Assembly: GCA_905178155.1 (NCBI GenBank)
Contig: CAJINV010000011.1
Coordinates: 3,375,077-3,439,076, forward strand
Length of the DNA: 64,000 nucleotides
DNA from: Amoebophrya sp. A120
Taxonomy: Eukaryota; Protista; Dinoflagellata
Reading direction: 5' to 3'
The notes under the pieces are model-generated. The model was given only the letters and a program-made list of their open reading frames with translations. It was not told the origin of the DNA and made no database searches. Numbering within the stretch: the stretch's first letter is position 1; the number at the start of each line of letters is the position of its first letter. The position numbers and the translations under genes are program-made. Positions 1 through 63,873 of this stretch are shown piece after piece.

Positions 1-3000
1 CTGGACGTGTGGCTGAACGCCACCGTGACCAGGGTCCTCTTCGCCCCCGACGGAGGTCGTGAGAACAACAGCGAGAAGCTATCAGAAGGAAAAATCCCCC
101 CTCCCCATATTGAACAGGTATGCTTCCGAAAATTTGCGTTGCTGATTTGAGGTCACAAATCACATTTGTCTTGCAAGAAGACAAGGGCAGAAGCTTCCGG
201 CCCATTATGGAAGCGATTTTTCATGCAGCTGTTGGGCCTAAAGCTAAAGGGGAGCCGTTTGCCATGCTGAACAACTAGACCCATAGGCCCCTACCTAGCC
301 TGGGGATCTGGCCGCAGTGCCTTCCTGCAATGCGAAGCTGATTCGTGTACACAAATCAAGCGTCAGAAATTCCGTTTTGATATGGGGGGGGATTTTTCCT
401 TGCAATAGAAGCGCGCCACGGGCATCGAGGTGCAGGTCGGGCCCCACGGGCTGAACAAGCTGCGCGTGTACGCGTCGCGGGAGATCGTGTTGTCCGCTGG
501 GGCGCTCGGGACGCCGAAAATCTTGACGCTGTCTATGACCCGCTCAGACCTTACAATCTCAACTGTTACAATAGAATCTGGAAATCTGTGATGCAAGAAC
601 TGAATGATCTAGCCTACTCCCATAGGATTGCGCATGAGAAGTTTCGGAGTCCCAAACCCACCTGAAATCCGGCAAAATTTGTATTGCGAAAAGCTCAATT
701 CTCTCTGCGTTCCTCATGCTCTTCATGCAATACAAATTGCAGATTCTATTGTAACGTTTGAGATTGTAGGGTTTGAGCAGGCCATACTGTCCGGAATTGC
801 CGATCCCTATGATTTGGGACGCCTCGGGATCCTATGACAGTGCACAACTCCCCTGCCCCCTTATTTGTCGTGCAAAATGGCAAGCCAACCCTTTGCCTCT
901 TGGCACTGTTTGCATGACAAGCTCGTCTGGTAGCCCAAATAGCACTACAATCCAGTGCAGATTTGTCATGCAAAACCGGCTTTCTTGCTGATGCTTGTAT
1001 TGCCGTTCATGCTATACAAATGAGGGGGAGGGGGAGTTGTGCACTCTGATAGATCCCGGTCACGCAGGCAAGTTACGCGGTGGGGAAATATTTGAAGGAC
1101 CACTTATGCTGGGTGGGGTATGTGATGATGGAAAAACACTTCGGGAACCGCGACGACTGTGACACCGGCATCATGGGCAGTGAGCGCTTGGGAATTTTTC
1201 TCAACATAACGAAAGAGGAAGACGTAGACGTCGGGGGCTTTGCGGCTGGTACTTCTAGTGGGGAAGATGAAGGTAGTAGTAATGCGAGGACAAGTAGTTC
1301 CAGTGGTAGTTTATCGCAGGTAGAGTCAGGACAGAATCCCGACGAGCCCGAAACCGAAGAGCAAAAAGCGGAGAAAGCCGAGAAGCGAAAGCAGGCCATG
1401 TGGGAGAACGTACTGCGGTACGAAGCGGAGGCTTCGAAGGACGACGCCAGCACGCTGACCTACGAGGAGCACGGCGTCATCGTGCCATCTAGAAATAATG
1501 CCGAACAACCGAATGGAAGTAGTGGCAAGGAAATAGAAACGAGCGATGTATCATTGCAAACAGAAAGAAATCCTTCCACAGTTGTTGAAGATCTTTCCCG
1601 CTTTACCGACGCCGCTGACCAGTTCGCCGTCGAGGGAGAATTGCGGCTGTTTTCTACCTGCTATGAGGAGAGCGAGCTGCAGAAACCCGGCACGCCAAGT
1701 GCGCAGGTCGTGGCGGAAAATAGTAGTAACCAGGATGAGGAGAAGAAAGACAAAGACTCGACGACCGCGCTGCATTACACCGTGGAGTTTGTGCAGATGC
1801 GGCCGAAGACCACGGGCCGGGTCTTCGTGAAATCGAATCGGCCCGAAGTGCCGCCAACCTTCGAGTACCCGCGCATCTTTCCCGAAGACTACGACTACCT
1901 GGCGCAGATGGGCAAGTGGATGGGGGACCAATTCGCGTCCACGGGCAGTACGCAGCCGGAGCCCATCACCGAACAGGCGTTCTCCCCCGGCGCGCTCGAG
2001 TCCGCGCGGGCGACCGCGCGCCTCTACCAGCACCCCTGCTGCTCGGCCGGGGTGACCCGCGTGCTCGACCAGGATCTCAGGGTAATGGGCGTGAAAAATC
2101 TGCGTGTGGCCGACGCCAGCGCGTGGGCGGAGATTCCGTCGAGCCACCTGGCGGCGCCGACGATGGCCTTAGGGTACCTCGCCGCCGAGTGGATGGTGCA
2201 CGACGCCGGGGGGTCGAGACAAAGCGTTTTCGACGAGGATAAGGAAGAACACCTGCATGAGCTTGAAATAAGCCTGGAGAGCAAGATATTGAAAAGCGTG
2301 ATTTTGGACGCGACGGCGCGGATGTTGCAAGAGGACGGGCTGCAGGAGCTGAAGCAGTACTTGGCAGTTCTGTTTGACGGGCGTATGTCGGTGGTCGACG
2401 TGCGGAACGATGAGGAACTGAACAACGGCCTGCGCTTGCGCGACGAGATTCTCCAACGCGTCGCGAACACCGTGATTGCGATCTTCCAGCAGGTGAAGAG
2501 CATCGCCGATCGGGATCGCCAGAGTATCAAATGCAAATGTGTCTGGGTCTGGAACAAAGCAACTTGTCATGCTAAATCTGAATCATGTAAAAAACTTGTG
2601 TTGCATGATTGCCAAAAGCTGTCCGCTTTTGACCTAATGCCAATCCAGAGGCAGTTTCTCATGCAGGATTTGCATGATAGAATTCTCACAGAATCTGTCA
2701 TGCTACGTCCTACATACCAGACCTCATGGGTCATGGAAAACCTGCATGACACCCAAACATATTTGCAACGCATACAGATGAGCTTGAGCAGGGAACAAAT
2801 AAACCCAGCGGCCGGCGTCGAAGTTGATGTACCGGAAATCACCACCGCTCACCTGGGGTTGGTTCGGGACGCGGTGCTGCAGCAGGTGTTTGACTCCAGC
2901 TTTCCCGACCCGAATCCCGAAGAGAAAGCGCGGGTGCGGGACCACAAAAATGTCATGAAAATCTTGCTTCGAGCGCGATTGGTGGTGGGGAACAAGAACG

Positions 3001-5575
3001 AGGATTCTGTTCTTGCGCAGACGGAAGTTGTAGAAGATGCGCTGCCCTCCACCTCCGCGGAAGAAATAGACCGATCAACAAGTAGTGACCACTCCACCCG
3101 CATGGTGATCGATTACCCCCTATGAACTGCAACTTTGTCTGGGTCTGGGAGATTGCGAGATTTGTGATGCTAGTCTGGCATGAGTCTAACTCTAAACTCT
3201 GTATTGCGTGCCAACGAAGAGACGCCCTTGTCTGTCATGCAAAAACGCAGCTTCCCATGCTGAGTATGCAACTCTGAACCACGGAAAAGTTTGTCATGCT
3301 GGGGAGCGCATTGCAGTGAGCTTAGTATTCCCTTCCTTGCATCACAAATTTCCAGACCCAGACATATTTGCAATGCATACCCCCCCAGCTGCCCGGTGCC
3401 GGTGGTCGAAATCGTGACGAAATACGAAAAATCTGCCCTGCAGGAGTTGACCGAGCGGGAAGAAAACATCCCCGAAGGAATTACCTCCATATCGCGCGAA
3501 CTGCTCGCCGGCCGCAACTCCAAACCCGAGCCCGAGATGGTTGCCGACAAAATGCTGGCCAGTTTCGACGACGCGTCAAAAGGTTCGCCGAAAATACAGA
3601 GTGAAGAGAGAGATGAGGTGGAGCAAGCAGACGTAGAAAACGCCGAGTCTGTGGCCCCGCAGTCGGACGCGTCGTCGTCGCGCGCCACCCTGGTTGACTT
3701 CGGCGGGCACATCCTGGAGCGCACGGCGGTGCACAAGATCGCATTTGGCACGGGCACCATGGACGACCGGTATTTCCTGGATACCTGCGTGGCCTTTCTG
3801 CGCGCGGGTGGGCGCGTGCTGGACACGGCGCACTTGTACGACAACAATGAGCAGATCAAAACCTGTATCAAGCACTCGCAAATCCCCCGGGAGGAGATCG
3901 TCATCGTCACCAAGGTGATGCCGCTCGGCCGCCGGGAAACGGAGAAGGCACTGAGCAACGCGTTCGAAACGCTCGGCACGGAGGAAAATTTTCTGTACAA
4001 AAAGACCTTCCCGCTCGACTACGTGCTGGTGCACTGGCCAGGGAATAACAAGGACCGCAAGCTGCCCATCCGGGTGCCTGCGGACTGCGCCATGACGGCG
4101 GAGGAATCTGAAAATAGGAGTACTAACTCGCAGGAGTTTGCCGGCGCGAACACGGCACTTCCGGACGAGGGCAGTAGTGGTGGCGGAACGCCGGCACGAA
4201 ACCCGCCGCTCATGTACGGTGGCATCAAGGGGCCGGAGGAAGAAGGTGCAGAAGACTTCTTTCCGGGTAGTACAGGGACAAGCGCGAAGCGGTCGCTGCG
4301 GCCGGATTCCTGGCGGAAATGCCGGGAGGAAACGTACGCGACGATGATCGAGTGGCAGAACCGTGGGAAAGTGAAGAAAATTGGGTATAGCAACTTCGGG
4401 ATTCACCACGTAAACGAGTTTGCAATGAAGTTTCCAGACCACCCACCCCAGATGCACCAGATGGAAATGAACCTACGGAAGTCGCAAAATTATGTCGTAC
4501 GACAGTACAACTACCGAATAAATTGCGTGGCAATAAATCTTATGCTCCAGCAAAGGAAAACGAAAAACGAAGCTTGTCAAGTAGTACAATGAATCGGGCA
4601 AAAATTGTAAAAAGAAATCTGTGATGCAGAAGTATTCTGTTGCAATTTGTACGAGCGCACCGTCGAAGATAGTTTTGCGACGTCGATAGAACCCAGCGTA
4701 CGTGGATCTGCCCGTGGTGGAAACCCACGCGGTGCAAAACCAGTACTACAGCTCGATCAACCAGCCCTGGAATAAGTGCGTCATTATGGCCTACGGTCTG
4801 ATTGGGGGCAACAACCGAGGGCAGCTGAACCTGAAGCATGTGTATCCTGTGCAAAAGTATCGTACTCGTATTGCAATCATGCATTACAAATCTTTCACTT
4901 AAGGTAAATCAGCACTTTTACAAATTTTATCTCTTGTGCTGAGGAAATTTGTAATGCATTTATACGAGTGCGATACTTTTGCAATTCATAATGTGGATCA
5001 GATCGCAAAGCGGAACGAGATCGACCGGTACGCGATGCTGGTAAAGTGGATCGTTGACCACTTGAACGGAATCGTCCTCGTATCCTGAGGAAAATAAACC
5101 GATAGTACAACAAGAAGGGAACAACCCATATTTTTGCCGCATAAGTGGGGCTAGCCAGCACGTGATGTGCCAGTTGTAGAGTTTTGCGGTCGTTGACATT
5201 GTTGTACACAAACCAAGAACAGTGATTGGCGACTTCTGTTGCACGTGACATCAACTTTGGGTCACTTTAGTGCAGTCGAAGTCGTGCTGGCGACAGCTAG
5301 TATAATACTGTCGCATTAATACTACAGATCTCATCGTGCTTTTCATCCCATGCATGAAGATCATGACAAATATGGGTACTTGTACAGTCACGGTGAATAT
5401 TTTGCTCATTGGATACCGCGTCGCGAGTCGGAGCACGGACCGGCTGAAGGAGGCTTTGTGCTTGTGGAAGAGTTATCCGAATAGGTTACCAGAGACGGAC
5501 ATGACCTACCTGACCACGGTCGCGAACAACTTCTTCCGCAAGGCCTACACGCCCTACCCGGACGACATTGGATAG
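1..5575 (+). CDS. 5'-truncated gene: GMC oxidoreductase (C-terminal half) apparently fused to an aldo-keto reductase domain; 8 introner introns
   Basis: After removing the elements at 80, 534 and 833 it reads LDVWLNATVTRVLF...KRATGIEV...REIVLSAGALGTPKILTLSGI...VGKYLKDH, then HPCCSAG...LRVMGVKNLRVADAS (GMC motifs). After the element at 3121 it continues in frame into AKR motifs DTAHLY, IVTKV, LDYVLVHWPG, KKIGYSNF, QMEMNP, IAKRN...KW and VASRSTDRLKE. Stop at 5573-5575. Confidence 0.8.
80..407. mobile_element. Introner, family C (TIR ..GAAAAATCCCCC); 5-bp DR GAAGC
   Basis: gaagc|TAT...ATA|gaagc; IR ggaaaaatccccc / gggggatttttcc; removal joins ENNSEK-RATG. Confidence 0.85.
534..786. mobile_element. 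Introner, family B (TIR TATGACCCGCTCA..TTACAATCTC); DR CTGTC
   Basis: ctgtc|TAT...ATA|ctgtc; removal restores ILTLSGI. Confidence 0.9.
833..1051. mobile_element. Introner, family D (TIR ..AGTGCACAACTCCCC); DR GATCC
   Basis: gatcc|TAT...ATA|gatcc; removal restores LGIPVTQ. Confidence 0.9.
2525..2774. mobile_element. Introner, family A (TIR ..TGCAAA.ATGTCTGGGTCTGGA); DR CAGAG/CAGAT
   Basis: Family A ends; 4/5 DR; 3n length and stop-free, so the ORF reads through it. Confidence 0.85.
3121..3379. mobile_element. Introner, family A; DR CCCCC
   Basis: Removal joins ORF 1080 to ORF 3291 in frame. Confidence 0.9.
4474..4688. mobile_element. Introner, singleton family (TIR ..GTCGCAAAA.TAT); DR GAACC
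   Basis: TAC...ATA; removal restores QMEMNPAY. Confidence 0.8.
4843..4990. mobile_element. Introner, family E (TIR ..TGCAAAAGTA); DR ATGTG
   Basis: Removal restores LKHVDQIAKR. Confidence 0.85.
5081..5415. mobile_element. Introner, family G-like (TATCCTGAG.AAAATA); DR CCTCG/CCGCG
   Basis: Imperfect TIR; removal restores GIVLVASRS. Confidence 0.75.
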
Positions 5576-6457: not shown

Positions 6458-9400
6458 ATGGCGAGCCTGCAGGAGCGGACCGCTCCTGCCGCGGAGCGCT
6501 TAATCCAGTCCTTGCTCGAGCGCAATACCGTGAGGAAAAATCCCCCCTTCCAATGATATTAATTGAAATGGAAATCGGTGATGATCCAGGACTTGTGTAT
6601 TGATGTAGAGGCGGACCACTGCAGGTGGATGCAAGGCCTGGGCAGGGGTGTTTTGAGGTAGGCACTACGCAGGCCGCTCTCTGTCGAGTTGTAGGTCTAA
6701 CAGCGTCAGCACAAATCGCTTCCGTAAAAATGCACCGGGCTGGCTGGAGTGGCCCTGCTCTTGGTCTTGCAAGACAGACGCGATCATCTGAGGTCACAAA
6801 TCAGCGTTGCAAATTTATTTTAGGAGCATATGGCTGTATTTCAGAGCAGGGGGGGCTTATTTTTCCTCACAATACGGAAGGCGGGCGAGCTAGACGAAAA
6901 GCGGGCGCAGCGCATGAGCAGTATCATCGAAGGCATTTCTCTTCATCAGGGGCGCATGATGTTGCTGGCGGGCCGTCAACCGAATACAACGTCTGACATG
7001 GTGAAGCCAGGAGAACTGTCTTCTACTTGTTCGCCTTCTTCTCCTTCCGCGGAACTGCACCACCAGGCCAGCGCGCGGTGGTCCCAAGCAGCGAAGCAAG
7101 TGAAGCGGCGCATCTCCGGGGGCACGGAGGATTTGGACGCTAGTAACAAACTCCTATCTTCGCGGGGACTTAATACGGGACGAGCTGGAAAGGGCCTTCC
7201 TGCCGGAGTTGGAGGAGCTGGGCTGCGCGAGACAGTTGCCGCAGTGGCAGCTGCTTCGCCGAACAATCCCAGCCCAGCACTGGATTTTTCATTATCTACT
7301 TCGCAATTCCGGGCAAGAAGTAGTGCCGCCCTGTCGTCCACCAAAATAAACACAATGCCCTCGTCTACTTCCGTCAAACGGCAATACAGCACCCGCGGAG
7401 CTGCCCAGGGACTGCAACCGGAGCAGAACCTCCTCTGCCCGGCCGACATCTTCAACTACGTGGCCTTCGGGCAGGGTTCGCTCCGGCCGGACTCCCCGGA
7501 GGTGCAAGTCGCGACGGTGCTGTCTGGGGATGGTGCGCAGCACGTCGAGGAGGCCCAGGAGCGGCAGCTACAAACCGAGCGCGCTTCCCGGGGCTTCAGC
7601 ACCGCCGGACCGGGAAACCAGCACGCCCTGGACCTGGTGCGGCAGCGGTTCGGAGAGGAGAACTACGCGTGGCCCCCGCGGGGGTCTTCGAGTGTAGTTC
7701 TGGGTGGACATCAACAACATGGGCAGCAAGTGAACAACATCCCGACACCTCCTGCTCCAAAGGAGGTCGACGAAATAAAATCACAGCTGGGGACAGGAAC
7801 TACAACAAACGTAGTACGCAAGAACACGATCATGGCCGCTCCGCCTGCAGCTCCTTCGACCAGCAGGTTCAGCGACCGTATCCACGAAGTGCTGGCTCGC
7901 AACAGGGAGTTGCTACCCACTAAAATCCTCGTAGAGCAACATGATAATGATAAAAAGTACGACCAGACGGCGAAAGAAAATAATGACAATAATCTCCCAG
8001 AAGATAGTAAAAATCCGAGCAGCACGGACTTCTACACGACAATGCCGTCTGCCCCGGTGAAGACTTTTTTTCCGTCTCTCGCTCCGGCTATCCCTTCCAC
8101 GCTACATATTCACCTGAACGAGCAGAACCAAGTAACCGCGGGAAGTACAACTAGTAGAAGAACCTCTCCTCGTAGTAGTAGAGCCAGCCCGGTTCATCTT
8201 ACATCCTTCCGTGACGGCGCCAGTCCACCTTCTCACGCCGTCCAGATCCAGACGGTACATGACCGAACTATGACCTGCTCAAACGTTACAATCTCAAACG
8301 TTACAATAGAGTTTGGATTTTGCCTTGCATGACGAGCATGACAGACTCGGACAGCATTCCACTTTCTGCAGTACAAATTTCGCCAGATTGTAGTGCGGTT
8401 TGGGACTGCGGAACTTGTCATGCGCAAACCTATGAGAGTTGGCTACATAATGCATCCATTGCATCACAGATCTCGATATTCTATTGTAACGTTTGAGATT
8501 GTAACACCTGAGCAGGTTATACGAACGGGAGACCATGTAACCGTCTCCGTACCGATAAAAACGGGACACACGGCGCGACCTCTAGTTAATACTAGCCGGC
8601 AAAGCCCAATTCCGGCGAGCCCAATTTCGCGGCCGCGCGCGACGTTCTTGACCGTGGATGACCCAACCGGAAAAATTCCGCAGCTCATGCCGTGCCACAG
8701 CAGTCCGCGGCCGCTCCGCGCGGGTTCTAGAAGTAGTTCTTTGGAGCGCATTCGGCACGGTAATAAACCGGTCGTGACCTCGGTGTTTGGTGCGGATGGT
8801 GCGATGGTGACGTATGGCAAACCGGCCTTGCTTATCAAATGTAAAAATGTCTGGGTCGGGAAGAATGCAACTTGTGATGCTGTCTCTGCATTATACAAAA
8901 ATCTGTATTGCATGACCAGCAAGAGGGCTCCAGTTTGTGCTACATGGAGGGGGTATTTCTCATGCGGGATAGGCATCAGAAAGCCCGCTGAAAATCTGTG
9001 ATGCCAGGCTATGCATTAGTTATGCGTCATGTAAAATCTGCATGACATCCAGACCCAGACATTTTTACATTTGATATTGCTGCAGCCCACGTTGCGCTCG
9101 CCGTCGATGCGCGCGGGGGCCTCCGCAGCTTCGAGTGCAGCGAAGAAGTCTACTTCACGGTGGAGTACAACTAGCCCGGGGGCGAGGAGCGGGCGAGGGT
9201 CGGCGGGTGCCTCTTCACCGGCACTGTTCAGTCACCAGAGCTATCAAATGTGAAAATGTCTGGGTCTGGAAACTTGTGACGCTGGGTGGCGTCTCATGAT
9301 GAGGCCACAAGTGCTGGCTCAGCATGACAAGTTTCTGAGCTTCTAGGTGTTGCCTATTCTGCATGACAAACTGCGTTTCTGCATCACAGAAAAGTGGGGC

Positions 9401-11305
9401 TCTTGGGTAACGTGCATGACAGATTTAAGAGTCATGCCAGACAAGCATGACAAACATGCATTCTTCCAGACCCGCCAGACATTTTTGCATTTGATAAGAG
9501 CTTCGTGGGGCAGGACGAAGCGACCGTGCTCCAGCAGCGGGCCGCAAAGCGGAAGCGGCAGGAAGAGTTGCGGGCGAGCAAAAAGTATGCATTGCAAATA
9601 TGTCTGGGTCTGGAAGATTGCGAGATTTGTCATGCTAGTTTGGCATGACTCTTAACTCTGTATTGCGTGCCCAGGAATAGCCCCTCTTGTCTGTCATGCA
9701 GAAACACTGTTTCTCATGCGGAATAGGCAACACAGAGCCGCGCAAAAAATCTGTCATGCTTGGCGGTGCATTACAGTGCGCTTTCTATTCACTGGCATGC
9801 ATCACAAATTTCCAGACCCAGGCATATTTGCATCTCATAATAAGTTCACGAACATTTTCTACGGGTCGGAGTCTCTGTTCCACGGCGCGGATCTCTCCGT
9901 GCGGAGCCCCACGCAACTGGAGTACCAGAAAAGGCTCGAGGAAGAGGAGAAAAAAGATGAAACATCGAGTCGGAACACCTTCACATTGACGAAGCAAGTT
10001 GGAGAACAAGAAGAAGAAGAAGACCTTGCTGCGAATGGTACAACCGCAAACAACGAAAAAAATCACGACATATTTTTCGCACACCCGGAAATTGAAACTT
10101 TCGCGCAAAAAACGCCGGGGAGTGCTGCAGGGGCGAACGAAGCAAAGACAGAGAGTAGTAGAAGAACCACATCAGTAGCAGCAGAAGTTTCCCGAATCGA
10201 GCAGATTCTCGCCAGCAGTCCAGCTGCGACGTCGACACTTCCTTCGGTGGATGAAAAATTGAAGCAGGAAGACATTACAACAGGAAAAATCCCGGCAACC
10301 AAGAACTCTTTTCCTCCAGCCGAACAAAGTTCTAGCATCAAACCCGACGGCGCAGTAGAACTTCAGCAGGAAAAAAACGAAGGTGGAATGACGCCCGAGA
10401 TCAACAAAGCTGGGGATGACTTTCATCTTCAATTGGGACAGAACTTGGACAATGTCTCAGCAAGAACAAAAAAGAGGTTCTCGGTCGGTGCTGCGGGTTC
10501 CGTGACAGTCGTTCCAACGAGTGTAGTAGAGAAAACTAGTACCGGCGATCATCTTGATCTAGAACTACTTCGAGAAGATGACGCTGAAGCAGGGGGAAGC
10601 AGCACGTTGGAAACGGAGGTAGAAGATGAAACAAGAACTGGTGCAGCAGCGCCACCTTTGTCCACCTCGGCAGCTTCATCTGCGAAAGTAGAGCGTCAAC
10701 AACATCTCCACCACATTGTTCAACACGACGGCGCGAGCCGGCTCTATTTTTACCAAGAACAAAAGACAAGTTCTGGCACTGAAGATCAGGTAGAGCTGCA
10801 CGACGAGGACGACGGCAACAGGGGGCAGCGCGAAGAACCTACTGCGGTTGTTCTTGAGAATATCATGAGTGGCAAAAAAGCTGAAATAAGCACTTTTGCT
10901 ACTGCGGATCCACAACAAGAGCACAACCCCTTGCCTTCAAACTCGAGCACCGACAAACACACCTCCCGCAGCGAAGCGCATTTCGTCGCCAGGATAAAGA
11001 AAAAGGTACTTTTCTTGAACTGATTCTTTCCATGATGAGTATGTTTCATTTATTGTTTCAACGCACTGTACCTGTAGTCACTGCTCCTCGATTCGTGTAG
11101 AGTTTTTGTTTCACTATCACTAGCGTTGTTGCTTCTATCACAGGTCGCGAAGACCCGGCCCGACGTCCCAGAGGAGTCAGTGGAAGTGGAGACTGGACAT
11201 CACGACAGTTTCGCTTTTGTCTACGGCCTCGATCCGGCCACGAACCAGCGCGAAATGCTGTTCGTCGCTCCGAGAATAAAGAAGGGGGCTTCTACTTCCG
11301 GATGA
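6458..11305 (+). CDS. Hypothetical low-complexity (S/P/E-rich) protein; 5 introners plus a GT-AG intron at 11006-11143
   Basis: The ORF segments 6374, 6830, 8393, 9071 and 9716 (with a short exon at 9502-9585) join into one frame on element removal; last exon 11144-11305 ends in TGA. Confidence 0.65.
6526..6874. mobile_element. Introner, family C; DR CGCAA/CGGAA
   Basis: IR gtgaggaaaaat / atttttcctcac; removal gives LERKAGEL. Confidence 0.8.
8269..8521. mobile_element. Introner, family B; DR CGAAC
   Basis: Long TIR, perfect DR, frame restored. Confidence 0.9.
8833..9076. mobile_element. Introner, family A; DR TTGCT
   Basis: TIR tatcaaatgtaaaaatgtctgggtc; perfect DR. Confidence 0.9.
9242..9496. 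mobile_element. Introner, family A; DR AGAGC
   Basis: TIR plus perfect DR; frame restored. Confidence 0.9.
9586..9839. mobile_element. Introner, family A; DR AAAAG/ATAAG
   Basis: TIR plus 4/5 DR; joins RASKK-FTNIF. Confidence 0.85.
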
Positions 11306-27400: not shown

Positions 27401-27946
27401 GCATTTCTCATGCGGAAGGTGCATCAGGAAGCCCTCTAAAAGTCTGCGATGCTAGGTCATGCATTACAGGCGTCATGTGTCATGAGAAACATGCATGACA
27501 AACTTGGCAATCTTCCAGACCCAGACATTTTTGCATTTGATATGGACGACAAAAACACGAAGTCGAAAAGGGAACACAATTGGGGTGTCATCTTCAGCCA
27601 TGATGCCTTCGAGAAGATGACCGATGAGCAGTCTGAGATGGCCGATGCCCAGCTGGATCATTATTTTTTGATGCTCACCGAAAGCGCGGAAGCGCTGGGT
27701 ATGGCAACGGATGAGGGCGAGGGTGATGTCGACCACTACTGGAAGCCGCTGCGTTCGCTTTGGTCAAAAACAAAAAAATTCTTCTTCCATCGGAGAAAAG
27801 GTATAATGAAAATAATGAGAGAAGAGCTACAGGCGACAGCCGAGGCGCAGCAGCAGGAAGAAAAAGCCCGCGGACTTGTCGATGAGCGAACTTGGAGTGC
27901 GCATCTGGCTCACCGAACAAAATCTTTGAACCAAATAACCTTCTAG
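24497..27946 (+). CDS. Hypothetical ~1000-aa protein with an N-terminal hydrophobic (TM/signal-anchor) segment; one introner
   Basis: Long ORF; FFLASICLCAVGINLFISGWVA; removing the element at 27281 joins HQLD-DKNTKS and runs to the stop at 27946. Confidence 0.7.
27281..27542. mobile_element. Introner, family A; DR TGGAC
   Basis: TIR plus perfect DR. Confidence 0.9.
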
Positions 27947-40500: not shown

Positions 40501-40713
40501 TCGGCCCCGACACTGGACGGCATGCTGTTTTTATGGGGCCTGGAGGAGCCACGAGAAAAACAAGAAGGAACAACGAACGACCGCGGGAAGCGGCGGGCGC
40601 GCGCGCAAAACAGGCGCGGGAAAAAGGACGGGAAGCCGGGGGGAGAGGATTCCGATAGCGAGGACGAGGTCCCAAGACCCGTGAGTAAAGCAATGAAGTC
40701 TTCGCCTGTGTAG
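31563..40713 (+). CDS. Formin paralog A: N-terminal helical region, ankyrin repeats, PGKGAAPP FH1-like region and FH2 domain; 5 introners and 5 GT-AG introns (32167-34665, 36583-36740, 37927-38072, ~39157-39341, ~39546-39698)
   Basis: Ankyrin motifs GYTCLHFAA, GFSALHLAA, GKSPLHDAC; FH2 motifs MKPLWWSRL and LAAGNYLNGNTNRGQADGFEL. Confidence 0.85.
33061..33200. repeat. 30-bp-period array: 5 palindromic units CAATTTCGATTTGAAATTG separated by variable ~11-bp spacers
   Basis: Units start at 33061, 33091, 33121, 33151 and 33181 (last degenerate); spacers all differ. Confidence 0.9.
33826..34405 (+). mobile_element. 733-bp repeat family, copy 3 (3'-truncated), inside formin A intron 1
   Basis: Same GTATGTAGTGAGGTCACCGAACGG start; similarity ends near gtgccaaaatttg. 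Confidence 0.85.
35112..35320. mobile_element. Introner, family F (TIR TATCG.A.GAAAAAA.TGTTTCACTGT); DR TCGAG
   Basis: TIR plus perfect DR; frame restored. Confidence 0.9.
35462..35740. mobile_element. Introner, family C; DR GAAGA
   Basis: Similar to 80-407; perfect DR. Confidence 0.85.
35796..36049. mobile_element. Introner, family A; DR ACTCG
   Basis: TIR plus perfect DR. Confidence 0.9.
37448..37603. mobile_element. Introner, family E; DR AAGAT
   Basis: Similar to 4843-4990; perfect DR. Confidence 0.85.
39968..40255. mobile_element. Introner, family G (TATCCTGAGTAAAAA); DR ATCCA/ACCCA
   Basis: Joins FEDPTDP-IRTVL. Confidence 0.85.
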
Positions 40714-47900: not shown

Positions 47901-50900
47901 GGTGGAGTCGGAGTTCGTGAAGCGGTTCGGCAAGAAGAAAGCCGCCGTGAAGGAGGCGCCAAAAAAGGAGGACGCGGACAAGAAAAAGGAGGACAAACCG
48001 AAGTTGTATGGATTGCAAAAACGTCTGGGTCTGGAAGATTGCAACTTGTCATGCTAAATCCGAATCATGCAAAAATCTGTGTTGCATGAGTGCCAAAAGC
48101 TGTCCACCTTCGACCAAGTTGGGAGGGAGCTTCTCATGCAGGATAGGCATGATAGAGACCTCGCAGTTTCTGTCATGCTAGGTCCCTCTTCCAATGTGTA
48201 TCGGTTGAGGACTGCCCCCTTCATCCTAAGCGCCATCAGCCATGGTATCTGGAAAACCTGCATGACAAGTTTGCACTCCTCCAGACCCAGACATATTTGC
48301 AATGCATAAGTTGAAGCTGCTGACGATCATCGACGACCCCATGAAGCAGGGCGGTCTGAACGCGGCCTGCAAGACCCTGCCAGAACCCACGGTATTGCAG
48401 CGGGCGATACTGGACCTGGACGACGTAGAAATCGACGTGAACACCTTGGAATGGGTCCGGCGGGACCTGTGCCCGGATCCGGGCCAGTTGGCGCAGCTGA
48501 ACACGCTGCGGAACGAAAACAAGGGCGTCCCCTTCGCCGTGCCAGAAACCTACATGCTCGCGATCGCGCACGTATACTTGTTTTTGTAGCGCCGGGAATT
48601 ACTTCTGTACTTTGGGAAAATATAAATAACTAAACGCATTATCATGATGTTGAGCCTGGAAAAAGACTCGCTTGCCAATGCTGTGGCTTTGGATTTCAAG
48701 AATCAGTATCGAAAATCTATAGCGAGATGAAAACTACATTAGGTTCCCGGGTACATGCAGCGTCTGGACTGCTGGCTTTTTTCGCGCACCTACGAGGAAA
48801 GGCTGAAGAAGTGCATGACCGCGTACTTGGCATTTCAAGCCGTGATGCGGAGTTTGCGCACAAGTAAGGAATTTCGGAAGCTTCTCGGCCTGATTCTGTG
48901 CGCCGGGAATTACCTGAACGGGGGGACCGACCGCGGGCAGGCGGAGGGCGTGGATCTGGACGTGTTGACCAAACTTGACGCCGTGAAGGACGTGGAGGGG
49001 AAGATGCTGAGTTTTTGTATGCATTGCAAATATGTCTGGGTCTGGAAGACAGTAACTTGTGATGCTGAGTCTACACCCTGTAAAAATCTGTGCTGCATGA
49101 CTGCCAACAGTTGTCCACTTTTGACCAGGTTGACAGGGAGTTTCTCATGCGGGATAGGCATGATAAAGTTAGAGATCTCACAGCTTCTGTCATGCTCAGT
49201 GCTGCATTCCAGACCTCATGGGTCATGGAAAACCTGCATGGCAAGTCTTCCATTCGTCCAGACCCAAACATATTTGCACTTGATACTTTGGGTCGTCCAA
49301 CAATTTTTCACGGCGCCGTTTTTCACGCGGCAGCAGGGTCCGAACGGGGAGGACCCAAGAGAGCTGCTGTTTGAGGAGCTCCGCCCACTCTTCTCCGCGG
49401 TGCGGCGACGGATCGAGAAGTCGAGCGATGGCGTCGAGTCCCTGGCCAAGCAGGTGTCCGTCTCGATCGAGGACTACGACCAAATCGCGGACCAAATCAA
49501 ACAGGAGTGCGACCAGCGGTACGAGATGCTCCGCGCCTGCCTGTGCCAGTTCGAGGACCCCGCGGACAGTTTCCGGACGGTGCTTGCGCCGCTGTTCGCG
49601 ACCGCTTCGGAGTCGTATGAGAGTGCACAACGACAACCCCTCCTCGCCCTTATTTGGATGGCATGACAAGCAATACAAACACCAGCACAGCACATGGATG
49701 CTGTGCATCACATGTTCATGCGCCGATTGTAGCGGTGTTTCCAGAACTTTTCATGCCAACAGTGCTACAAGGCCACAACAACTGGATTGGGATTTTTGCA
49801 TGACAAACGAGGGGCAGGGGAGTTTTCCACCCTCATAAGCCCGTGGACGAGTTGATCGCGAAGAAAAAACAGGTAAAGCAGGAGTACGAAGATTTGTTGA
49901 AGTATTTCACGATGGGACAAGTGAAGGCGGCGACGTTGATCAAGATGATCGACGACATGCTTGTTCCCGGGGACCAGATCACGAACAAACCCGAAAAATT
50001 GAAAAAAGCCTACTTTGTCCCGCAGTTCTGCGGGAACCGCACCCCGACGGCAGACAGCATCATGGCCCTTTGGGACCTGAAGGAGCCCGAGTTGCGGTCG
50101 GAAGATATGCATTGCAAATATGTCCTCTGGGTCTGGAAACTTGTCATGCTGTTTGACGAATCCCGCGGACGCCTTCATTGACAGCCAAGCATGACAAGTT
50201 TTGGAATTGCTATAGTGTTGCTTATCTGCTTGACAAAGTGCGTTTCTGCATGACAGAGAAGTGTGGCTTTTGGGTGGCGTGCAGGACAGACTTGAGAGCC
50301 ATGCTAGCCGTGCATGGCAAGCCTTGCATTCTCCCAGACCCAGACATATTTGCATTTGATAGAAGAGTCGCTGGGACAAAAGAAGCCGCGAGCGACCGGT
50401 GCGCGAAAGACGGAGAATCGGCGGGGAATCCGGGGAAAAACTTCCACCGCGACGGGTGGTGCAGACGGGGCGAAGACGAGCGTGCGAGGTGCTGGGATTG
50501 GGAAGAATTCCGCGCTGAATGTTGGAAGTGAGAGTATTTCTAAAGACAGCACAGAACAACAAACCACTAGCACTGAGAAAAAAGGTGAGCAGGACAAGGA
50601 AGGTCCAAATCGTACCGGTGATGAAGTGGAGAAAACTGCTCATGGTGACAAGGCACCACCAGAGAAACAAGCAGGAGAGCTGCAAGGGTCAGCCGCAGGT
50701 ACACCAAATAAAGCATCGAATGCCGTGGTGGAACAAGTGAAGAAAAGCCCCGCAACTGCAACACAATCATCAGAAGACAAAGCCGCTGCAGCAGCGGACA
50801 CCAGCAAAGCTAGCAGCACAAATTCGCCAAAGCGAAGTCAGCGCCTCTCCGTCGCAGCAGCAGAGAAACAAGAGAACCACGACTCAACTTTGACGCCCAG

Positions 50901-56789: not shown

Positions 56790-57538
56790 AATATTCGCAC
56801 TTTGTGCGGTCGACTATTGCGGAGCCACCTGCACGAAGATGCATCCGGAATGTAAAGGGTACGTCGAGCAAACGGCCACGTCGACCTGTGTGCTCTTCGG
56901 CCTTGTGTTATCCACAGTAAATTTCCCGTACACGACGTACAAATGCTGTCTACTCCCTTCAATCGTAGTCATACCCGTACATTTACAAAACTTTCCTTCA
57001 ATCTTAGTCAGCATGACAAGTCTTGAAGGAAGTTGTCGAAATTTGTCGTGCATTTTGTACATGTGCGGGAATTTTGTATAGCATATGTGTCAGGAAAGGT
57101 GGACTTGACCGCGGACGGCGGTAAGGACAAATTCCACAAATGGTGCGAAGACAAGTGCTATCAACTGCAAATACGTCTGGGTCTGGAAGATGGCAACTTG
57201 TCATGCTAGATCTGAATCATGCAAAAAATCTGTGTTGCATGATTACCAACAGCCGCCCTTTTTTACCAATTTGAGAGGGGATTTGATTTCTCATGCAGGA
57301 TAGGCATGATAAAGATCTCACAGAATTTACCATGCTAGGTACTGCATTCCAGACCTCATGGGTCATGTAACACCTGCATGACAAACCTTGCATTCATCCA
57401 GACATGTTTGCAATGCATAAGTGCCCTGCAACACTTACAACTGCACCAAGCGAGGGGGGAAGTCCAGCCTCCGCGGGCCGACTGAGCTGCATCAGTTTGT
57501 TGATGCTAGCCTTTTCGCTTCTTGTGGCTTGGAACTAA
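56790..57538 (+). CDS. Small Cys-rich PAN/apple-like protein with a C-terminal hydrophobic (GPI-like) tail; 2 introners; start not resolved
   Basis: DYCGATCTKMHPECKGYVEQTATSTCVLFGLV-SGKVDL...WCEDKC-PATLTTAPSEGGSPASAGRLSCISLLMLAFSLLVAWN*. Confidence 0.5.
56909..57085. mobile_element. Introner, singleton (imperfect TIR ..AAATTCCCG.ACA); DR TGTGT
   Basis: tgtgt|TAT...ATA|tgtgt; frame restored. Confidence 0.75.
57159..57419. mobile_element. Introner, family A; DR AGTGC
   Basis: Family A body; perfect DR. Confidence 0.9.
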
Positions 57539-59029: not shown

Positions 59030-60972
59030 ATGACAGATCCATTCCGGCTCTACTTCAGAGACCAGTCCTCTGACGAGGAGGAAACGGACAGGCTTTTGTA
59101 CTTTTACGGCGACGAAAGTTCGAGCGACACCTCTAGTAGAAGTAGCTCCTCGGCAAATAGTACTAAAAACTCGAACGAGGTCCGCGTTGTCGAGAGGCCT
59201 GTGCAGATAAAAAACCAGGATGCCGGCGGGGAGAATCACGAGGCACACGATTCTTCGGCGCAAGACGTTGAGAGCTTGCCGAAGGGTACTACAAGTCTTC
59301 AGACAATAAGAACTCGGCGCGACCAGCGAGGTCAAGAGCCGGTACAACTTTTCGGCGGTCCCGCCCCCGCTGCGAGGAGGTCGGCGGCATCCGTCGACCA
59401 CCACCACCACCAGGAGGCAGGAGCTGCGTCAGGTGCCGCTACAACTTCTAGCGGGCATCATGATTCTGGGCATCATCATCATCACCATCATCATCACCAC
59501 CGTAGTGGCCACGGCACAGAAGCTGCGGCCAAGGAGGACGGCGGCGGCCTGTTGGCGTACTTTTTCAAGGCGGTGTACGTCGAGGGTAGCGGTAAAAACT
59601 ACGGGATCAGTGCCGGGGACGATGATGAAGAGTTTGGGCACCATGGTACCCACCACCATACGCACCACAGCGGAAGCAAGCATGAGGACAGCAAAGTCCA
59701 TTTGATGGCAAAAGGTTTGACGAAAAGCAAGAACAGCGAAAGCCTTGCGCCGGGGATGATCACAGACGGAAAGTCGCCCGGTGATAGAGGTGTGTGTTGC
59801 TGTCCGCTTGATCGCACACACCCCATAGGCGTATGCGGAATGGACAAGAGGCACTCGCCACCTTGGCACTTGAGGGTATAAATTTTGGAATTCGTTCTCT
59901 GTTTTCAGTTCATGTTTTGCTCATTCCTGTTTGCTTCATCTGCGATGATCATCTTCTTCTACTATCTTGCCTTACGTTTTCGTAGCGCGCGATATAACGC
60001 AGCGCGCATCCGTCACCGAAAAAACAAAAACTCCTCCCGTCAGGTATTTATGCCATGCTGCACGTACGTGAATTGGGCGGGCTGCGACGCAGTTGCCATA
60101 TTAATGTCCACCACCTGGTGGCTATCCTGAGTAAAAACGTACCCACACCAGAGTCAGGATGGGGATTTTGCGACACAAACCTAGGAGTTTTGTGAGTCAC
60201 GCATGACAAGTTGCACTCTGCAGTGTAGTGCAGGTTAGCAAGTGCAGCCGCGTCACAGATTCATCTGCTCATCCTGTTCACAGCATCACAAATTCCAAAA
60301 CACGATTGGAAATGGCTCTCATGCGGATGCGCATTACAAGTCTTCCTGTCTTTGCGACTGGTGTGGGTACGTTTTTACTCAGGATAGTGGCTGCTTTTTT
60401 GGCCTGTGTTTTACGTTACCTGCTGCTGGTATCAAATGTAAAAATGTCTGGGCCTGGAAGGTTACAAGGTTTGTCATGCATATTCTGCATGAGTCAGGAT
60501 GTCTGTAATGCATGATCTAGCATCACATATTTTTAGAGGCCTTCCTGATGCCTATTCCGCATGACAAATGCCCTCCACGCGTAGCACAAACCGGACTCCT
60601 CTTGCTGGTCATGCAATACAGAATTTTTTAGAGTCCAAAGTTAGCATCTTCACAAGTTCCAACCTTCCAGACCCAGACACTTTTGCAATCCATAGCTGGG
60701 AGCCGACGTCCTACAGTACGACAACGGACGCCGACGACTATCTTAATAGGGTAGGCGCCCCAGTACAGGCAGAAAATAAACAGAGCGCGAGCGTAGACGT
60801 AGCGGCCCTGCGGAACGTACCAACCATAGCCCCCCAGCACCGGAGCGGATCTGACGGTCAGAAGTTTCCGGACCGCGACCAAGCACACAGCGTTTACACA
60901 GGCATAATCAACGCGCCGCAGGCGGCGAACCCGGGTGGCAGTAACGGAGGTGGCAGTGCGGACAATGTTTGA
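59030..60972 (+). CDS. Hypothetical His-rich protein with a Cys-rich membrane segment; GT-AG intron 59876-60043 and 2 introners
   Basis: Poly-His tracts; joined exons give VFMPCCTYVNW...STTWWLLFWPVFYVTCCWEPTSY; stop at 60972. Confidence 0.6.
60123..60386. mobile_element. Introner, family G; perfect 29-bp TIR; DR GTGGC
   Basis: tatcctgagtaaaaacgtacccacaccag / ctggtgtgggtacgtttttactcaggata. Confidence 0.92.
60430..60694. mobile_element. Introner, family A (opposite orientation to 27281); DR GCTGG
   Basis: Body is the reverse complement of 27281-27542; perfect DR. Confidence 0.9.
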
Positions 60973-62314: not shown

Positions 62315-63873
62315 ATGACGGACCTTTCGTCCTCTCTCTCGGGAGCTTCAAGTTCCACTTCAAGTTCCGGGTCCTCTTCGTCCAGGAGAAGTTTTATCAC
62401 GACCAGCAACTCGAGCTCATCCTCTGCGTCGTCAGCCTCAGAATCGGCTTCTTCTACGTCCTCTTCCAGCGCGTCCGGTTCTTCATCTTCCAGCAGTTTT
62501 TCGTCAGCTAGAGACAGCAGTCACCTAGGCCCACCGTCGGAAGTGCCAGAGATTGACGATGATGGGTCAAAAATGTCATCCTCTGTGGCCACCTCTTTGA
62601 TGTCCTGGACTGTGAAAGAACCGATTTATTCACATTCCTCCTCCCACCATCGAGAGCCAGAGAGCTCCATCACGGCCCGTGCCCGCGCGCTGAAGGCGCA
62701 GGAGCCGATTTTCCTCTTTGCGCCCTCGTCGAGAAGTGGCACGACATCATCGGCCTCTTCGTCCGGGAGCGGCTCATCTTCTGCCGCGGGGTCAAAGAGC
62801 AGCAAAGGTGGCTCTGGCTCCTCGTCATCGTCTGGGGGTAGTAGTAGCAGTAGCGGTAGTTCTAGTGCGACTGCGAGCAAAGAGTCCTCGTCCACAGCGA
62901 AGAAGTCGTCAGAAAAGTCTTCGAGCAAGCAGACGTCTTCCTCCTCCTCCAGTAGCGCGACGTCATCATCCTCTCCCGTGACCAGTTCTACCGATCAAAA
63001 GAAAAGCACTTCCGAGAAGAGCAAGCGGAAAAGTACTAGCAGGAAAAGCATAGACGACTCGAGTGGTGCAGCAGGGGCAAACATGAAAAAATCCGTCTCG
63101 AACATTACAACCGTAACGGAGCCGGGGCTACACGCGGAGGGCGAAGCACCTGCGCCAGGGACTTTGAACATGGCTCAGCCGCAGGTAATTCTTTCCGGAT
63201 CGGAGTCCGCACAAGATTCTTCTTCATTTGCGGCTAGCAGTAAGGAGCAGAACTACGGGACGAATTATGCGGGGAGTAGAACCTCTGCAGCACAACGACG
63301 GGAGCTGAAAGTGCAGCGGGCACTGGAGCAAACGAGACGCGCACTGGACGCTGGCGCACGGATGCACGCGGTCGGCGCGGAAATGACGGCGAAGAAAAAG
63401 GCGCTCGCGGAGGCGAAACGAGTAGCGGACGACGAACTGGTCCGGCGGTCGCAGCTGGAGCGGATCGCAAGGCGGAAGGGGTTGGGAACCCGGGTGGATT
63501 TGCTGACCAGTCACGACTATGAAATGCAAAAATGTCTGGGTCTGGAAGAATGCAAGATTTCGATTTGTGATGCAGGTTTTCCATGACCCATGAGGTCTGG
63601 GATGCGAGACCCAGCATGACAGATTCTTTGAGGTCTCTATCATGCCGTTCCTGCATGAGAAACTCCCTCTCAACTTGGTCAAAAGCGGACAGCTTTTGGC
63701 ACTCACGCAACACAGATTTTTGCATCATTTAGATTTAGCATGACAAGTTCTAATCTTCCAGACCCAGACATTTTTTCAATCCATAATGACGACGTGCATT
63801 CGAAAGCGGAGCGGGATGCGTTCCTAGCCGGGATGTTTTCCCAAGGCATGGAGATGTTGGAAAGGAGAAAAGA
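62315..63873 (+). CDS. Ser-rich hypothetical protein, 3'-incomplete (continues after a GT donor at ~63874)
   Basis: Poly-Ser ORF; removing the element at 63518 gives TSHD-DVHSKAERDAF. Confidence 0.6.
63518..63785. mobile_element. Introner, family A (opposite orientation to 48007/49018); DR ACGAC/ATGAC
   Basis: TIR plus 4/5 DR. Confidence 0.88.

What the first reader, a model, noticed from the sequence alone, without database searches (positions are those of the whole stretch)
534..63785. A shared internal motif GCATNACAA / TTGTNATGC recurs in families with unrelated TIRs
Seen: families with different ends and bodies carry several copies, in both orientations, of gcatgacaa/gcatcacaa/gcattacaa or ttgtcatgc/tgtgatgc/ttgtaatgc. 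Examples: 2525 and 43294 (A), 8269 (B), 35462 (C), 833 (D), 4843 and 37448 (E), 35112 (F), 60123 (G) and the singleton 29119. By eye the motif is uncommon in exons. Inference: a common binding site for one factor (transposase, excision or splicing guide, or chromatin protein) that marks a sequence as removable. This could be the unifying cis-signal of the system.
Basis: partly seen in the sequence, partly recalled or inferred. Interest (0 to 1): 0.78.

Follow-up and report, generated by a model that had tools for sequence, protein, structure and literature searches.

The report
Helically phased motif in parasite introners
Short mobile introns in this genome, likely a marine parasite's, carry several copies of one DNA word spaced in whole turns of the helix, which is likely the grip by which one transposase moves them.

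Summary
GCATNACAA occurs 61 times (2.2 expected); 60 lie in 35 elements of 148-349 bp with TAT...ATA ends and 5-bp target duplications. Likely-RNA contigs skip exactly element+5 nt at 9 of 13 elements covered, so they are introns. They fit the published Amoebophrya A120 introners. A window-trained profile (aaAYYTGTVWTGC) recurs in 321 of 325 held-out elements.

Not found in the papers searched: sites are spaced at multiples of about 10.4 bp in either orientation, chiefly as a same-direction pair 31-33 bp apart, which is all that 109-113-bp minimal elements contain. Spacings shared by many copies are phased; single-copy ones mostly are not. Cores mutate at half the rate of other interior bases, yet are broken in surviving copies and sparse in old copies within intact frames.

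Best reading (0.6): double-stranded DNA sites for the mobilising transposase or a bending partner, kept by transposition rather than splicing. The families are not unrelated: all share a terminal signature and some share interiors. No binding protein was found. Side finding: +3/+6 hairpin-type excision footprints pepper elements and exons.

The parts
80..407 (.). TAT..ATA element, family C1, 328 bp; 5 profile sites, no strict motif
534..786 (.). Element, family B, 253 bp; 4 profile sites, no strict motif
833..1051 (.). Element, family D, 219 bp; strict motifs 912, 963
2525..2774 (.). Element, family A, 250 bp; strict motif 2564
3121..3379 (.). Element, family A, 259 bp; strict motifs 3162, 3291, 3339
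4474..4688 (.). Singleton element, 215 bp; one profile site; interrupts an aldo/keto reductase frame
4843..4990 (.). Element, family E, 148 bp; strict motifs 4881, 4949
5081..5415 (.). Decayed singleton element, 335 bp, added by eye; two weak sites; removal with 5 nt keeps a 486-aa frame open
6526..6874 (.). Decayed C-like element, 349 bp; two weak sites; removal keeps a 1,080-aa frame open
8269..8521 (.). Element, family B, 253 bp; strict motif 8415
8833..9076 (.). Element, family A, 244 bp; strict motif 8872
9242..9496 (.). Element, family A in the other orientation, 255 bp; strict motifs 9322, 9361, 9445
9586..9839 (.). Element, family A, 254 bp; strict motifs 9627, 9799
20372..20622 (.). 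Element, family A, 251 bp; strict motifs 20407, 20575
27281..27542 (.). Element, family A, 262 bp; strict motifs 27320, 27493
28773..29041 (.). Element, family A, 269 bp; strict motifs 28818, 28904, 28992
29119..29425 (.). Element, family S (not a singleton: 9 members), 307 bp; strict motifs 29295, 29328, 29376
35112..35320 (.). Element, family F, 209 bp; strict motifs 35157, 35281; skipped (214 nt) in likely-RNA contigs
35462..35740 (.). Element, family C2, 279 bp; strict motifs 35537, 35602; skipped (284 nt)
35796..36049 (.). Element, family A, 254 bp; strict motifs 35837, 35960, 36009; no joint among those shown
37448..37603 (.). Element, family E, 156 bp; strict motifs 37521, 37555; skipped (161 nt)
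39968..40255 (.). Element, family G, 288 bp; strict motifs 40049, 40186, all sites in one direction; skipped (293 nt)
43294..43550 (.). Element, family A, 257 bp; strict motifs 43333, 43501; no joint among those shown
43582..43802 (.). Element, family F, opposite orientation to 35112, 221 bp; strict motifs 43613, 43737; skipped (226 nt)
43964..44222 (.). Element, family B, 259 bp; strict motif 44066; no joint among those shown
44274..44537 (.). Element, family A, 264 bp; strict motifs 44315, 44488; no joint among those shown
48007..48308 (.). Element, family A with about 40 extra bp, 302 bp; strict motifs 48046, 48260; skipped (307 nt)
49018..49285 (.). Element, family A, 268 bp; strict motif 49057; skipped (273 nt)
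49616..49837 (.). Element, family D, 222 bp, added by eye; strict motifs 49661, 49798; skipped (227 nt); mismatched duplications place the splice cut after base 3 or 4 of the 5-bp repeat
50106..50361 (.). Element, family A in the other orientation, 256 bp, with a 3-bp insertion in its TIR; strict motifs 50141, 50189; skipped (261 nt)
56909..57085 (.). Singleton E-like element, 177 bp; strict motif 57011
57159..57419 (.). Element, family A, 261 bp; strict motifs 57198, 57376
60123..60386 (.). Element, family G, 264 bp; strict motifs 60201, 60283, 60331
60430..60694 (.). Element, family A, 265 bp; strict motifs 60471, 60559; the last site is broken by a 3-bp insertion
63518..63785 (.). Element, family A, 268 bp; strict motifs 63565, 63738
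42419..42427 (+). The one strict match outside any element, in an exon; chance level

Best explanation
The motif is a conserved 12-base site repeated at whole helical turns inside TAT...ATA mobile introns, and it is likely the double-stranded DNA binding site of the one transposase (or its DNA-bending partner) that mobilises all these families. Shown: the elements have TIRs, 5-bp target duplications and both orientations; they are removed from likely-RNA contigs together with one duplication copy; they carry typically 3-6 sites; the cores are selectively conserved; spacings cluster at multiples of 10.4 bp, with a same-direction pair 31-33 bp apart as the basic unit and the first site usually 39-51 bp from a tip. 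Inferred: proteins bound on one face of the helix bend or wrap a 110-330-bp element, which is near or below the DNA persistence length, so that its two ends meet in a synaptic complex. Only copies with intact, in-phase sites found new lineages, while resting copies decay. Splicing likely reads the terminal hairpin and ends, not this motif. Inferred candidate enzyme: an integrase-type DDE transposase such as the one whose remnant is reported in A120 family 38 (same 5-bp duplication, TA/TA ends).
For: Enrichment. Held-out 1,484 sites in 325 elements, 321 of 325 with at least one. Phasing: one copy per family in the window, mean cosine 0.60 at 10.3-10.4 bp, 0 of 3,000 random placements. Held-out, 34 clusters, 0 of 300 in each of 10 draws, also with the 30-34-bp distances removed when both orientations are pooled. 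Twelve family consensuses give one peak, at 10.5 bp, in a 5-20-bp scan; sets of four families (A, E, F plus one of B, D, G, C1, S) give p <= 0.0025. Spacings common in a family are phased (75; cosine 0.54; 73% within 2 bp), single-copy ones weakly (424; 0.15; 48%). The two main A variants differ by 9-10 bp, C1 and C2 by 10-11 bp in three intervals. Five minimal elements, not used to derive motif or spacing, hold exactly two same-direction sites 32, 32, 32, 32 and 35 bp apart. Cores are more conserved than other interior columns in 10 of 10 families; private substitutions 0.037 vs 0.073. Precedent: cooperative transposase binding to subterminal motifs of a MITE (PMC1636448, abstract); helical periodicity read as DNA looping in an excision complex (PMC3464196, passages).
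Against: No binding protein, transposase or autonomous copy was found: no element over 520 bp except one A copy with a foreign insert; the 172 long frames of the loci were screened only by crude regular expressions. Farhat 2021 found no transposase in A120 and took this to rule out transposase mobilisation (section 16). The motif does not resemble the TIR tips more than chance (p 0.2), unlike many transposase sites (recalled). Families are related, so a few ancestral spacings (about 32, 41, 52) could be counted many times; only 3 of 12 families are significant alone, and same-direction distances without the 30-34 class are weaker (0-33 of 300). Phase relative to the tips is weak (0.20) and E and F have first sites at 43-46. 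Indels between nearest copies are 3 and 6 bp, not 10 bp. Sites are redundant, so tolerance of single broken sites does not exclude a role in splicing.
Confidence: 0.6

Rival explanations
1. The motif is a splicing signal read in the pre-mRNA (protein or guide-RNA site, or internal stems between opposite copies) that makes up for the reported loss of U1.
For: The elements are spliced with non-canonical ends. Cores are predicted paired more often than other interior bases (0.76 vs 0.60), 38% of it core with core. Most copies have sites in both directions. Private substitutions are halved in cores. U1 was not detected in A25 or A120 (PMC7789003, passages).
Against: A 10.4-bp period across orientations is a duplex-DNA property. 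39968 has one-direction sites, no predicted core-core pairing, and is spliced. Opposite orientations of A and F are both spliced. Copies with one or two weak sites lie in frames that need their removal (inference, no RNA laid). 3/6-bp insertions hit cores nearly as often as other bases (24 of 11,156 vs 124 of 38,933, p 0.09), and the core substitution rate is no lower than the 0.033 mismatch rate between duplication copies.
Confidence: 0.13
2. A host chromatin or architectural protein binds the phased sites in DNA, marks or wraps the element, and may recruit splicing while the gene is transcribed; transposition profits only indirectly.
For: Phasing and orientation independence fit any one-face DNA binder. 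No transposase was reported in A120. The motif differs from the TIR tips. Elements are CpG-poor (0.56 vs 1.15 in other DNA), so they are treated differently from exons.
Against: The motif is nearly confined to these elements (0.18 vs 18.5 per kb) and absent from other introns and repeats. No regular alternation of AT and GC dinucleotides was seen around sites beyond the motif and its repeats (by eye). Phase is kept in propagated lineages and lost in single copies.
Confidence: 0.15
3. The motif is a passive relic: all families descend by shuffling from one ancestor with a 31-32-bp internal repeat, and nothing reads it now.
For: All families share the TAT-S-N6-AAA end. With sites and TIRs masked, C1-C2 (z 15.4) and B-D (z 10.6) remain alignable, and six more of 66 pairs reach z 3.2-4.2.
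Against: Cores are conserved while the DNA between them diverges beyond recognition. Sites change orientation at equivalent positions, and intervals change by whole turns between related families. Minimal elements keep exactly the pair. A shows no inter-site homology to others (z <= 0.9), although 142 of its 195 interior bases were masked, so power is low.
Confidence: 0.09
4. The TG/CA-rich word is a by-product of methyl-CpG decay or base composition in the elements.
For: CpG observed/expected is 0.56-0.60 in elements and 0.68 outside sites; TG and CA are in excess.
Against: Markov models that keep element di- and trinucleotide content give about 1 match against 60. C-to-T is only 1.5 times faster at CpG (0.040 vs 0.027). 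Decay cannot set spacing.
Confidence: 0.02

Closest known systems
Amoebophrya sp. A120 introner elements (Farhat et al. 2021, PMC7789003; passages, section 16, supplement text search)
   Same: Inverted repeats starting TAT, seven variable bases, then three or more A; 3-5-nt direct repeats; about 240 nt; non-canonical, variable splice sites; many families. Family lengths here (109-113, 150, 209, 222, 252/262, 279, 307, 321) recur among the A120 rows of Gozashti 2025 (40 of 58 rows seen), mostly classed 'TIR DNA, unknown'.
   Different: The text seen describes only end motifs and argues against transposase mobilisation. No internal shared motif, spacing rule or footprint is mentioned; figures were not visible. 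The window was not aligned to the A120 assembly.
A120 introner family 38 (Gozashti et al. 2025, PMC12130899; passages and one supplement row)
   Same: [quoted passage not shown]
   Different: About 808 bp with frames like LTR-retrotransposon proteins. The elements here are short and non-coding. Whether family 38 carries the motif could not be checked.
IS3EU/GingerRoot and Ginger2/TDD integrase-type DNA transposons (PMC10045372, passages)
   Same: TA..TA termini (IS3EU, GingerRoot); 4-5-bp TSD (Ginger2).
   Different: IS3EU and GingerRoot make 6-bp TSDs, here always 5. Ginger2 ends are TGT..ACA (recalled). No transposase was found here.
Subterminal repeats of MITEs, e.g. Arabidopsis Emigrant bound by Lemi1 proteins (PMC1636448, abstract)
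   Same: Short repeated internal motifs besides the TIR in a non-autonomous element, proposed to set which elements a transposase can move.
   Different: Here the sites fill the whole element, are phased, are shared across families with divergent TIR interiors, and the elements are also introns. Binding is untested.
Paramecium IES 10-bp size periodicity (PMC3464196, passages)
   Same: Transposon-derived intragenic elements with a helical-repeat constraint read as DNA looping.
   Different: IESs are cut from DNA in development and total length is periodic. Here removal is seen in likely-RNA contigs while the DNA run keeps the elements, and the period lies between internal sites.
Euglena non-conventional introns (PMC12501133, abstract; PMC11282704, passages)
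   Same: Non-GT-AG introns with paired ends and TSD-like repeats.
   Different: Their splicing code is a terminal CAG/CTG pair; no internal phased motif is described in the text seen.

Membership tests
Amoebophrya A120-type introner | Inverted repeat starts TAT, seven variable bases, then an A run | tested here: met
   End logo of 360 elements: TAT 98-99% (partly required by the detector), A at positions 11-13 in 87-93%
Amoebophrya A120-type introner | 3-5-nt direct repeat at the borders | tested here: met
   143 of 202 strong-TIR pairs have an exact 5-bp repeat and 21 a 4-of-5 match, none 4, 6, 7 or 8 bp; most of the other 38 rows are shifted inner alignments
Amoebophrya A120-type introner | Removed from RNA with non-canonical ends | tested here: met
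   9 of 13 elements skipped as element+5 nt in X3-X6 (one sample, RNA status guessed; 5 joints not shown); contigs of X1 run from exon into element without differences
Amoebophrya A120-type introner | Lies in the A120 genome | not testable with these tools
   No genome held; the organism is inferred from the match to the published description
MITE (non-autonomous TIR DNA transposon) | Short, TIR, TSD, many copies, both orientations, no transposase frame | tested here: met
   12 multi-copy families, about half the copies in each orientation; 14% of the window
MITE (non-autonomous TIR DNA transposon) | Mobilised in trans by an autonomous partner | not testable with these tools
   No partner in 64 kb plus 180 loci; far too small a sample
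IS3EU/GingerRoot | TA..TA termini | tested here: met
IS3EU/GingerRoot | 6-bp TSD | tested here: not met
   5 bp only; not filed as a member
Ginger2/TDD | 4-5-bp TSD | tested here: met
Ginger2/TDD | TGT..ACA termini (recalled) | tested here: not met
   Ends are TAT..ATA; not filed as a member
Subterminal transposase-binding repeat | Repeated, conserved motif at fixed distance inside the ends | tested here: met
Subterminal transposase-binding repeat | Sequence related to the TIR binding site (true of some families, recalled) | tested here: not met
   Profile comparison p 0.2
Subterminal transposase-binding repeat | Bound by the transposase | not testable with these tools
   Needs the protein and a binding assay
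hAT-type excision footprint (side finding) | Extra base is the complement of the base bordering the element | tested here: met
   64 of 67 (+3), 18 of 18 (+6), 6 of 7 (+4); expected 42.8, 9.5, 4.0; rule from PMC5873905 passages
hAT-type excision footprint (side finding) | 8-bp TSD (recalled), giving +7 | tested here: not met
   0 of 3 seven-bp insertions fit; the sizes imply 4- and 7-bp duplications
Euglena non-conventional intron | N3-CDG ... CHG-N5-6|R signature | not tested
   Exact splice cuts are ambiguous inside the 5-bp repeat

The most novel reading that the evidence does not exclude
One sequence-specific protein wraps each short element on helically phased sites and does two jobs: it brings the ends together for transposition, and it marks the transcribed element for removal in place of the missing U1. 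A mobile-element protein would then have become the intron-recognition factor for tens of thousands of introns, in a genome whose exons are also reshaped by frame-preserving +3/+6 excision footprints.
Probability: 0.12. Interest if true: 0.9.

Novelty: new variant of a known kind. Interest (0 to 1): 0.62.

Why it matters
How Amoebophrya introners move and how they are spliced were left open: the describing paper found no transposase in A120 and no clear splice-site signature, and most families are still of unknown superfamily. A shared, phased internal site unites the families as one system and argues for a DNA-level protein complex. It supplies a ready bait for finding the protein, a spacing rule that can be tested, and a better probe for annotating decayed copies. 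The +3/+6 footprints show cut-and-paste activity in this genome and offer a mechanism for its fast protein evolution.

Tried and rejected
No own genome was held. The family-A TIR pattern found nothing in viral contigs. Raw RNA runs X9 and X10 did not cover the unique DNA (93 and 2 reads, all partial) and say nothing on splicing here; no listed holder is on record as RNA. Rejected: motif as a copy of the TIR tip (p 0.2); CpG decay as its origin; indels in whole helical turns between nearest copies (they are 3 and 6 bp); phasing of gaps between neighbouring elements (119 gaps, amplitude 0.08). My first reading of the +6 insertions as both 5-bp duplications plus a free base was dropped: the extra base follows the hairpin rule, which points to 7- and 4-bp duplications. 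No recurrent element with such duplications was found, so the footprints may belong to another element class. No nested TAT element was found in eight long copies. Pfam confirmed the aldo/keto reductase only for the piece before 4474; three short downstream pieces gave no matching hit. The 172 long frames in the loci were not scanned against Pfam. Supplement file sd02 of PMC12130899 was the wrong table. The scan's earlier findings held nothing. No protein search, fold or complex job was run, as no candidate protein exists.
Full report
1. The observation. GCATNACAA has 61 exact matches on the two strands, against 2.21 +/- 1.59 in 100 dinucleotide-preserving shuffles. I looked for elements without using the motif (TAT...ATA ends, inverted-repeat identity, 5-bp direct repeat): 45 candidate rows, of which 33 were kept and 12 shifted or weak rows dropped. 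These 33 hold 58 of the 61 matches. Two decayed elements were added by eye (5081, 49616), giving 60 of 61 in 35 elements covering 8,921 bp; 30 of 35 have a strict copy. Markov models of element DNA give about 1. A profile built from the window reads aaAYYTGTVWTGC and finds 18.5 sites per kb inside and 0.18 outside (circular for the inside figure).

2. What the elements are. Contigs of four runs that are probably RNA (one sample, status guessed) skip exactly the element plus 5 nt at 9 of the 13 elements in 30,700-50,600. Five ordinary GT-AG introns are skipped in the same contigs; one joint is cross-mapping and five were not shown. Contigs of run X1 run from exon into element without differences, so the elements are in the DNA; not all of its joints were shown. 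Removing element plus 5 nt opens frames of 486, 1,080, 418 and 1,702 aa. This fits the A120 introners of Farhat 2021 (TAT, seven variable bases, A run; 3-5-nt repeats; passages). The organism is inferred from that fit, not shown.

3. Independent material. One scan of metagenome contigs with a family-A TIR pattern gave 180 loci and 325 further elements, with 0 false calls in 147 kb of shuffled DNA. With the window's 35 they form 12 multi-copy families and 26 singletons; family A is over-sampled (186 of 360) by design. The window-trained profile finds 1,484 sites in these 325; 321 have at least one and 299 a strict copy. Of 2,079 distinct sites in the loci, 1,450 lie in called elements, 459 in element-like fragments and 170 elsewhere; by eye many clusters among the 170 are missed or decayed elements. 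The repeat is always 5 bp.

4. Are the families unrelated? No. All share TAT-S-N6-AAA, and the TIR interiors fall into related groups. With sites and TIRs masked, C1-C2 (z 15.4) and B-D (z 10.6) still align, and six more of 66 pairs reach z 3.2-4.2. A and E show nothing above z 2.5, with little unmasked sequence. B and D have different TIRs but a common interior, so bodies and ends have been shuffled. Ancestry therefore explains where the motif came from. It does not explain why cores are more conserved than other interior columns in 10 of 10 families, or why private substitutions are 0.037 in cores against 0.073 between them (p 5e-43).

5. Spacing. Measured at the terminal GC, distances between sites cluster near 31-33, 39-42, 49-54, 61-64, 72, 81-85 and 93 bp. 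With one copy per family in the window the mean cosine peaks at 10.3-10.4 bp (0.60; 34 distances; 0 of 3,000 random placements). In held-out elements, one random copy from each of 34 clusters gives 0 of 300 in 10 of 10 draws, for same-direction pairs and for all pairs. Dropping the 30-34 class leaves all pairs at 0 of 300 but weakens same-direction pairs to 0-33 of 300. Twelve consensuses give a single peak at 10.5 bp over a 5-20-bp scan (0.47; next highest 0.19). Sets of four families (A, E, F plus one of B, D, G, C1, S) give p <= 0.0025, but only 3 of 12 families are significant alone. Spacings shared by at least 15% of a family are phased (75; cosine 0.54), those seen in one copy weakly (424; 0.15). 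Related variants differ by a turn: the first site of A lies at 40 or 49, and C1 and C2 differ by 10-11 bp in three intervals. Five 109-113-bp elements below my first size limit hold just two same-direction sites 32, 32, 32, 32 and 35 bp apart. Caveat: if three ancestral spacings underlie everything, the number of independent events is small. The one-turn shifts and the common-versus-rare contrast are the best answer to that.

6. DNA or RNA? The period holds across orientations, which suits a protein binding one face of a duplex. A and F are spliced in both orientations, and 39968 is spliced with one-direction sites and no predicted core-core pairing. GT-AG introns and the 733-bp repeat lack the motif. 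Copies at 4474, 5081 and 6526 have one or two mostly weak sites yet interrupt frames that need their removal (the aldo/keto reductase hit stops at profile position 165 of 291 at 4472; no RNA was laid there). Small insertions hit cores nearly as often as other bases (p 0.09), and the core substitution rate is no lower than the mismatch rate between duplication copies (54 of 1,625, a lower bound). On the other side, cores are predicted paired in RNA more often than other interior bases (0.76 vs 0.60), and redundancy could hide a role in splicing.

7. Mechanism. Shown: anatomy, splicing in likely-RNA contigs, enrichment, conservation, phasing. Inferred: a sequence-specific protein binds the sites cooperatively on one face and bends a 110-330-bp element so that the ends meet; lineages that keep phase are copied, resting copies decay; splicing reads the ends. 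A transposase or its partner is most likely (0.6), a host chromatin protein next (0.15), then an RNA signal (0.13) and a passive relic (0.09). The lead for the enzyme is A120 family 38, listed with a 5-bp TSD and TA/TA termini and carrying frames like LTR-retrotransposon proteins. No such protein was found here, and Farhat 2021 reported none in A120. The motif is not a copy of the TIR tip.

8. Side finding. Indels between nearest copies are mostly 3 and 6 bp and are insertions (97 and 29 against 2 and 2 deletions). Most are a duplication of n-1 bases plus one base that is the complement of a flanking base (64 of 67, 18 of 18; expected 42.8 and 9.5), as in Ac/Ds hairpin footprints (PMC5873905, passages). 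That implies 4- and 7-bp duplications; the +4 class expected from 5-bp elements is rare (7). The 6-bp signature is also in open frames, about 0.8 per kb above background (168 vs 89.7). Cut-and-paste excision thus likely occurs in this genome, but its link to these introners is unresolved.

9. What is known. The elements are described (PMC7789003: passages, section 16, supplement text search; PMC12130899: passages, supplement legends, 40 of 58 A120 rows; PMC11282704, PMC9860276, PMC12005148 and bioRxiv 2020.10.14.339549: passages). They fail the TSD test for IS3EU/GingerRoot and the end test for Ginger2 (PMC10045372, passages; Ginger2 ends recalled). Subterminal sites in MITEs (PMC1636448, abstract) and helical periodicity in IESs (PMC3464196, passages) are the working analogies. 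Nine literature searches and these passages showed no report of an internal motif, its phasing or the footprints in Amoebophrya. Figures (for example Farhat Fig. S25), most supplement tables, bioRxiv supplements and subscription journals were not visible and could hold it.

10. Verdict. A real, strongly supported cis-element in a known class of mobile introns, with a geometry not found in the papers searched that points to a DNA-level mobilising complex and makes an open question testable. New variant of a known kind; interest 0.62.

Noticed in passing
element copies in window and loci L001-L180; e.g. window 50123 and about 60645: Private insertions are mostly 3 bp (97) and 6 bp (29), with only 2 deletions of each size. 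67 of 97 and 18 of 29 are a duplication of n-1 bases plus one base, and that base is the complement of a flanking base in 64 of 67 and 18 of 18. This is a hairpin-type excision footprint that always keeps the reading frame, implying 4- and 7-bp target duplications.
   Followed up: yes
long open frames in loci (146 frames, 101,577 bp) and window exons (26,833 bp): Exact 5-mers recur at lag 6 in excess: 168 vs 89.7 at other in-frame lags, about 0.8 per kb; in the window 38 vs 20-28. The same complement rule is enriched in non-element DNA. Footprints may be a driver of the fast protein evolution reported for this genus.
   Followed up: partly
window 13757-14489, 21114-21846, 33826-about 34410 (partial): A second repeated insert of about 733 bp, 88% column identity, starting GTATGT and bounded by GTA on both sides. 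It has no motif. Its length and 3-bp repeat resemble A120 family 26 in the Gozashti 2025 table.
   Followed up: partly
L024:1032-1144, L031:6048-6156, L059:2473-2581, L062:1008-1119, L115:552-663: Minimal 109-113-bp near-palindromic elements: two TIRs and one pair of sites; the best substrate for experiments.
   Followed up: yes
window 49611-49842: Mismatched duplication copies place the splice cut after base 3 or 4 of the 5-bp repeat, so this intron begins one or two bases before TAT (G-TAT or CG-TAT).
   Followed up: no
L077:571-1051, L042:4304-4760, L038:632-1465: Foreign inserts of about 200-580 bp inside elements end in simple repeats (TGAA, ATG or CAT runs) at or next to a motif or CATG word; possibly truncated non-LTR retrotransposons.
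   Followed up: no
window 34590-40700 and 42150-51540: Two neighbouring genes that look paralogous by eye, with formin FH2 and ankyrin hits, hold 13 of the 35 elements, while long low-complexity exons at 9.8-20.4 kb and 20.6-27.3 kb hold none; elements cluster, often under 200 bp apart.
   Followed up: no
window elements vs other DNA: CpG is depleted in elements (0.56) but not in the rest (1.15), with a mild excess of C-to-T at CpG; hints at element-directed methylation.
   Followed up: partly
window 33050-33200 and 54800-56400: A tandem run of a palindromic AATTTCGATTTGAAATT-like unit, and a 70% GC stretch; both unexplained.
   Followed up: no
reads of X9 on window 48017-48091: RNA reads that do not match the window's unique DNA carry a 90-95% identical piece of family A, so the family also occurs in another strain or sample.
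   Followed up: no
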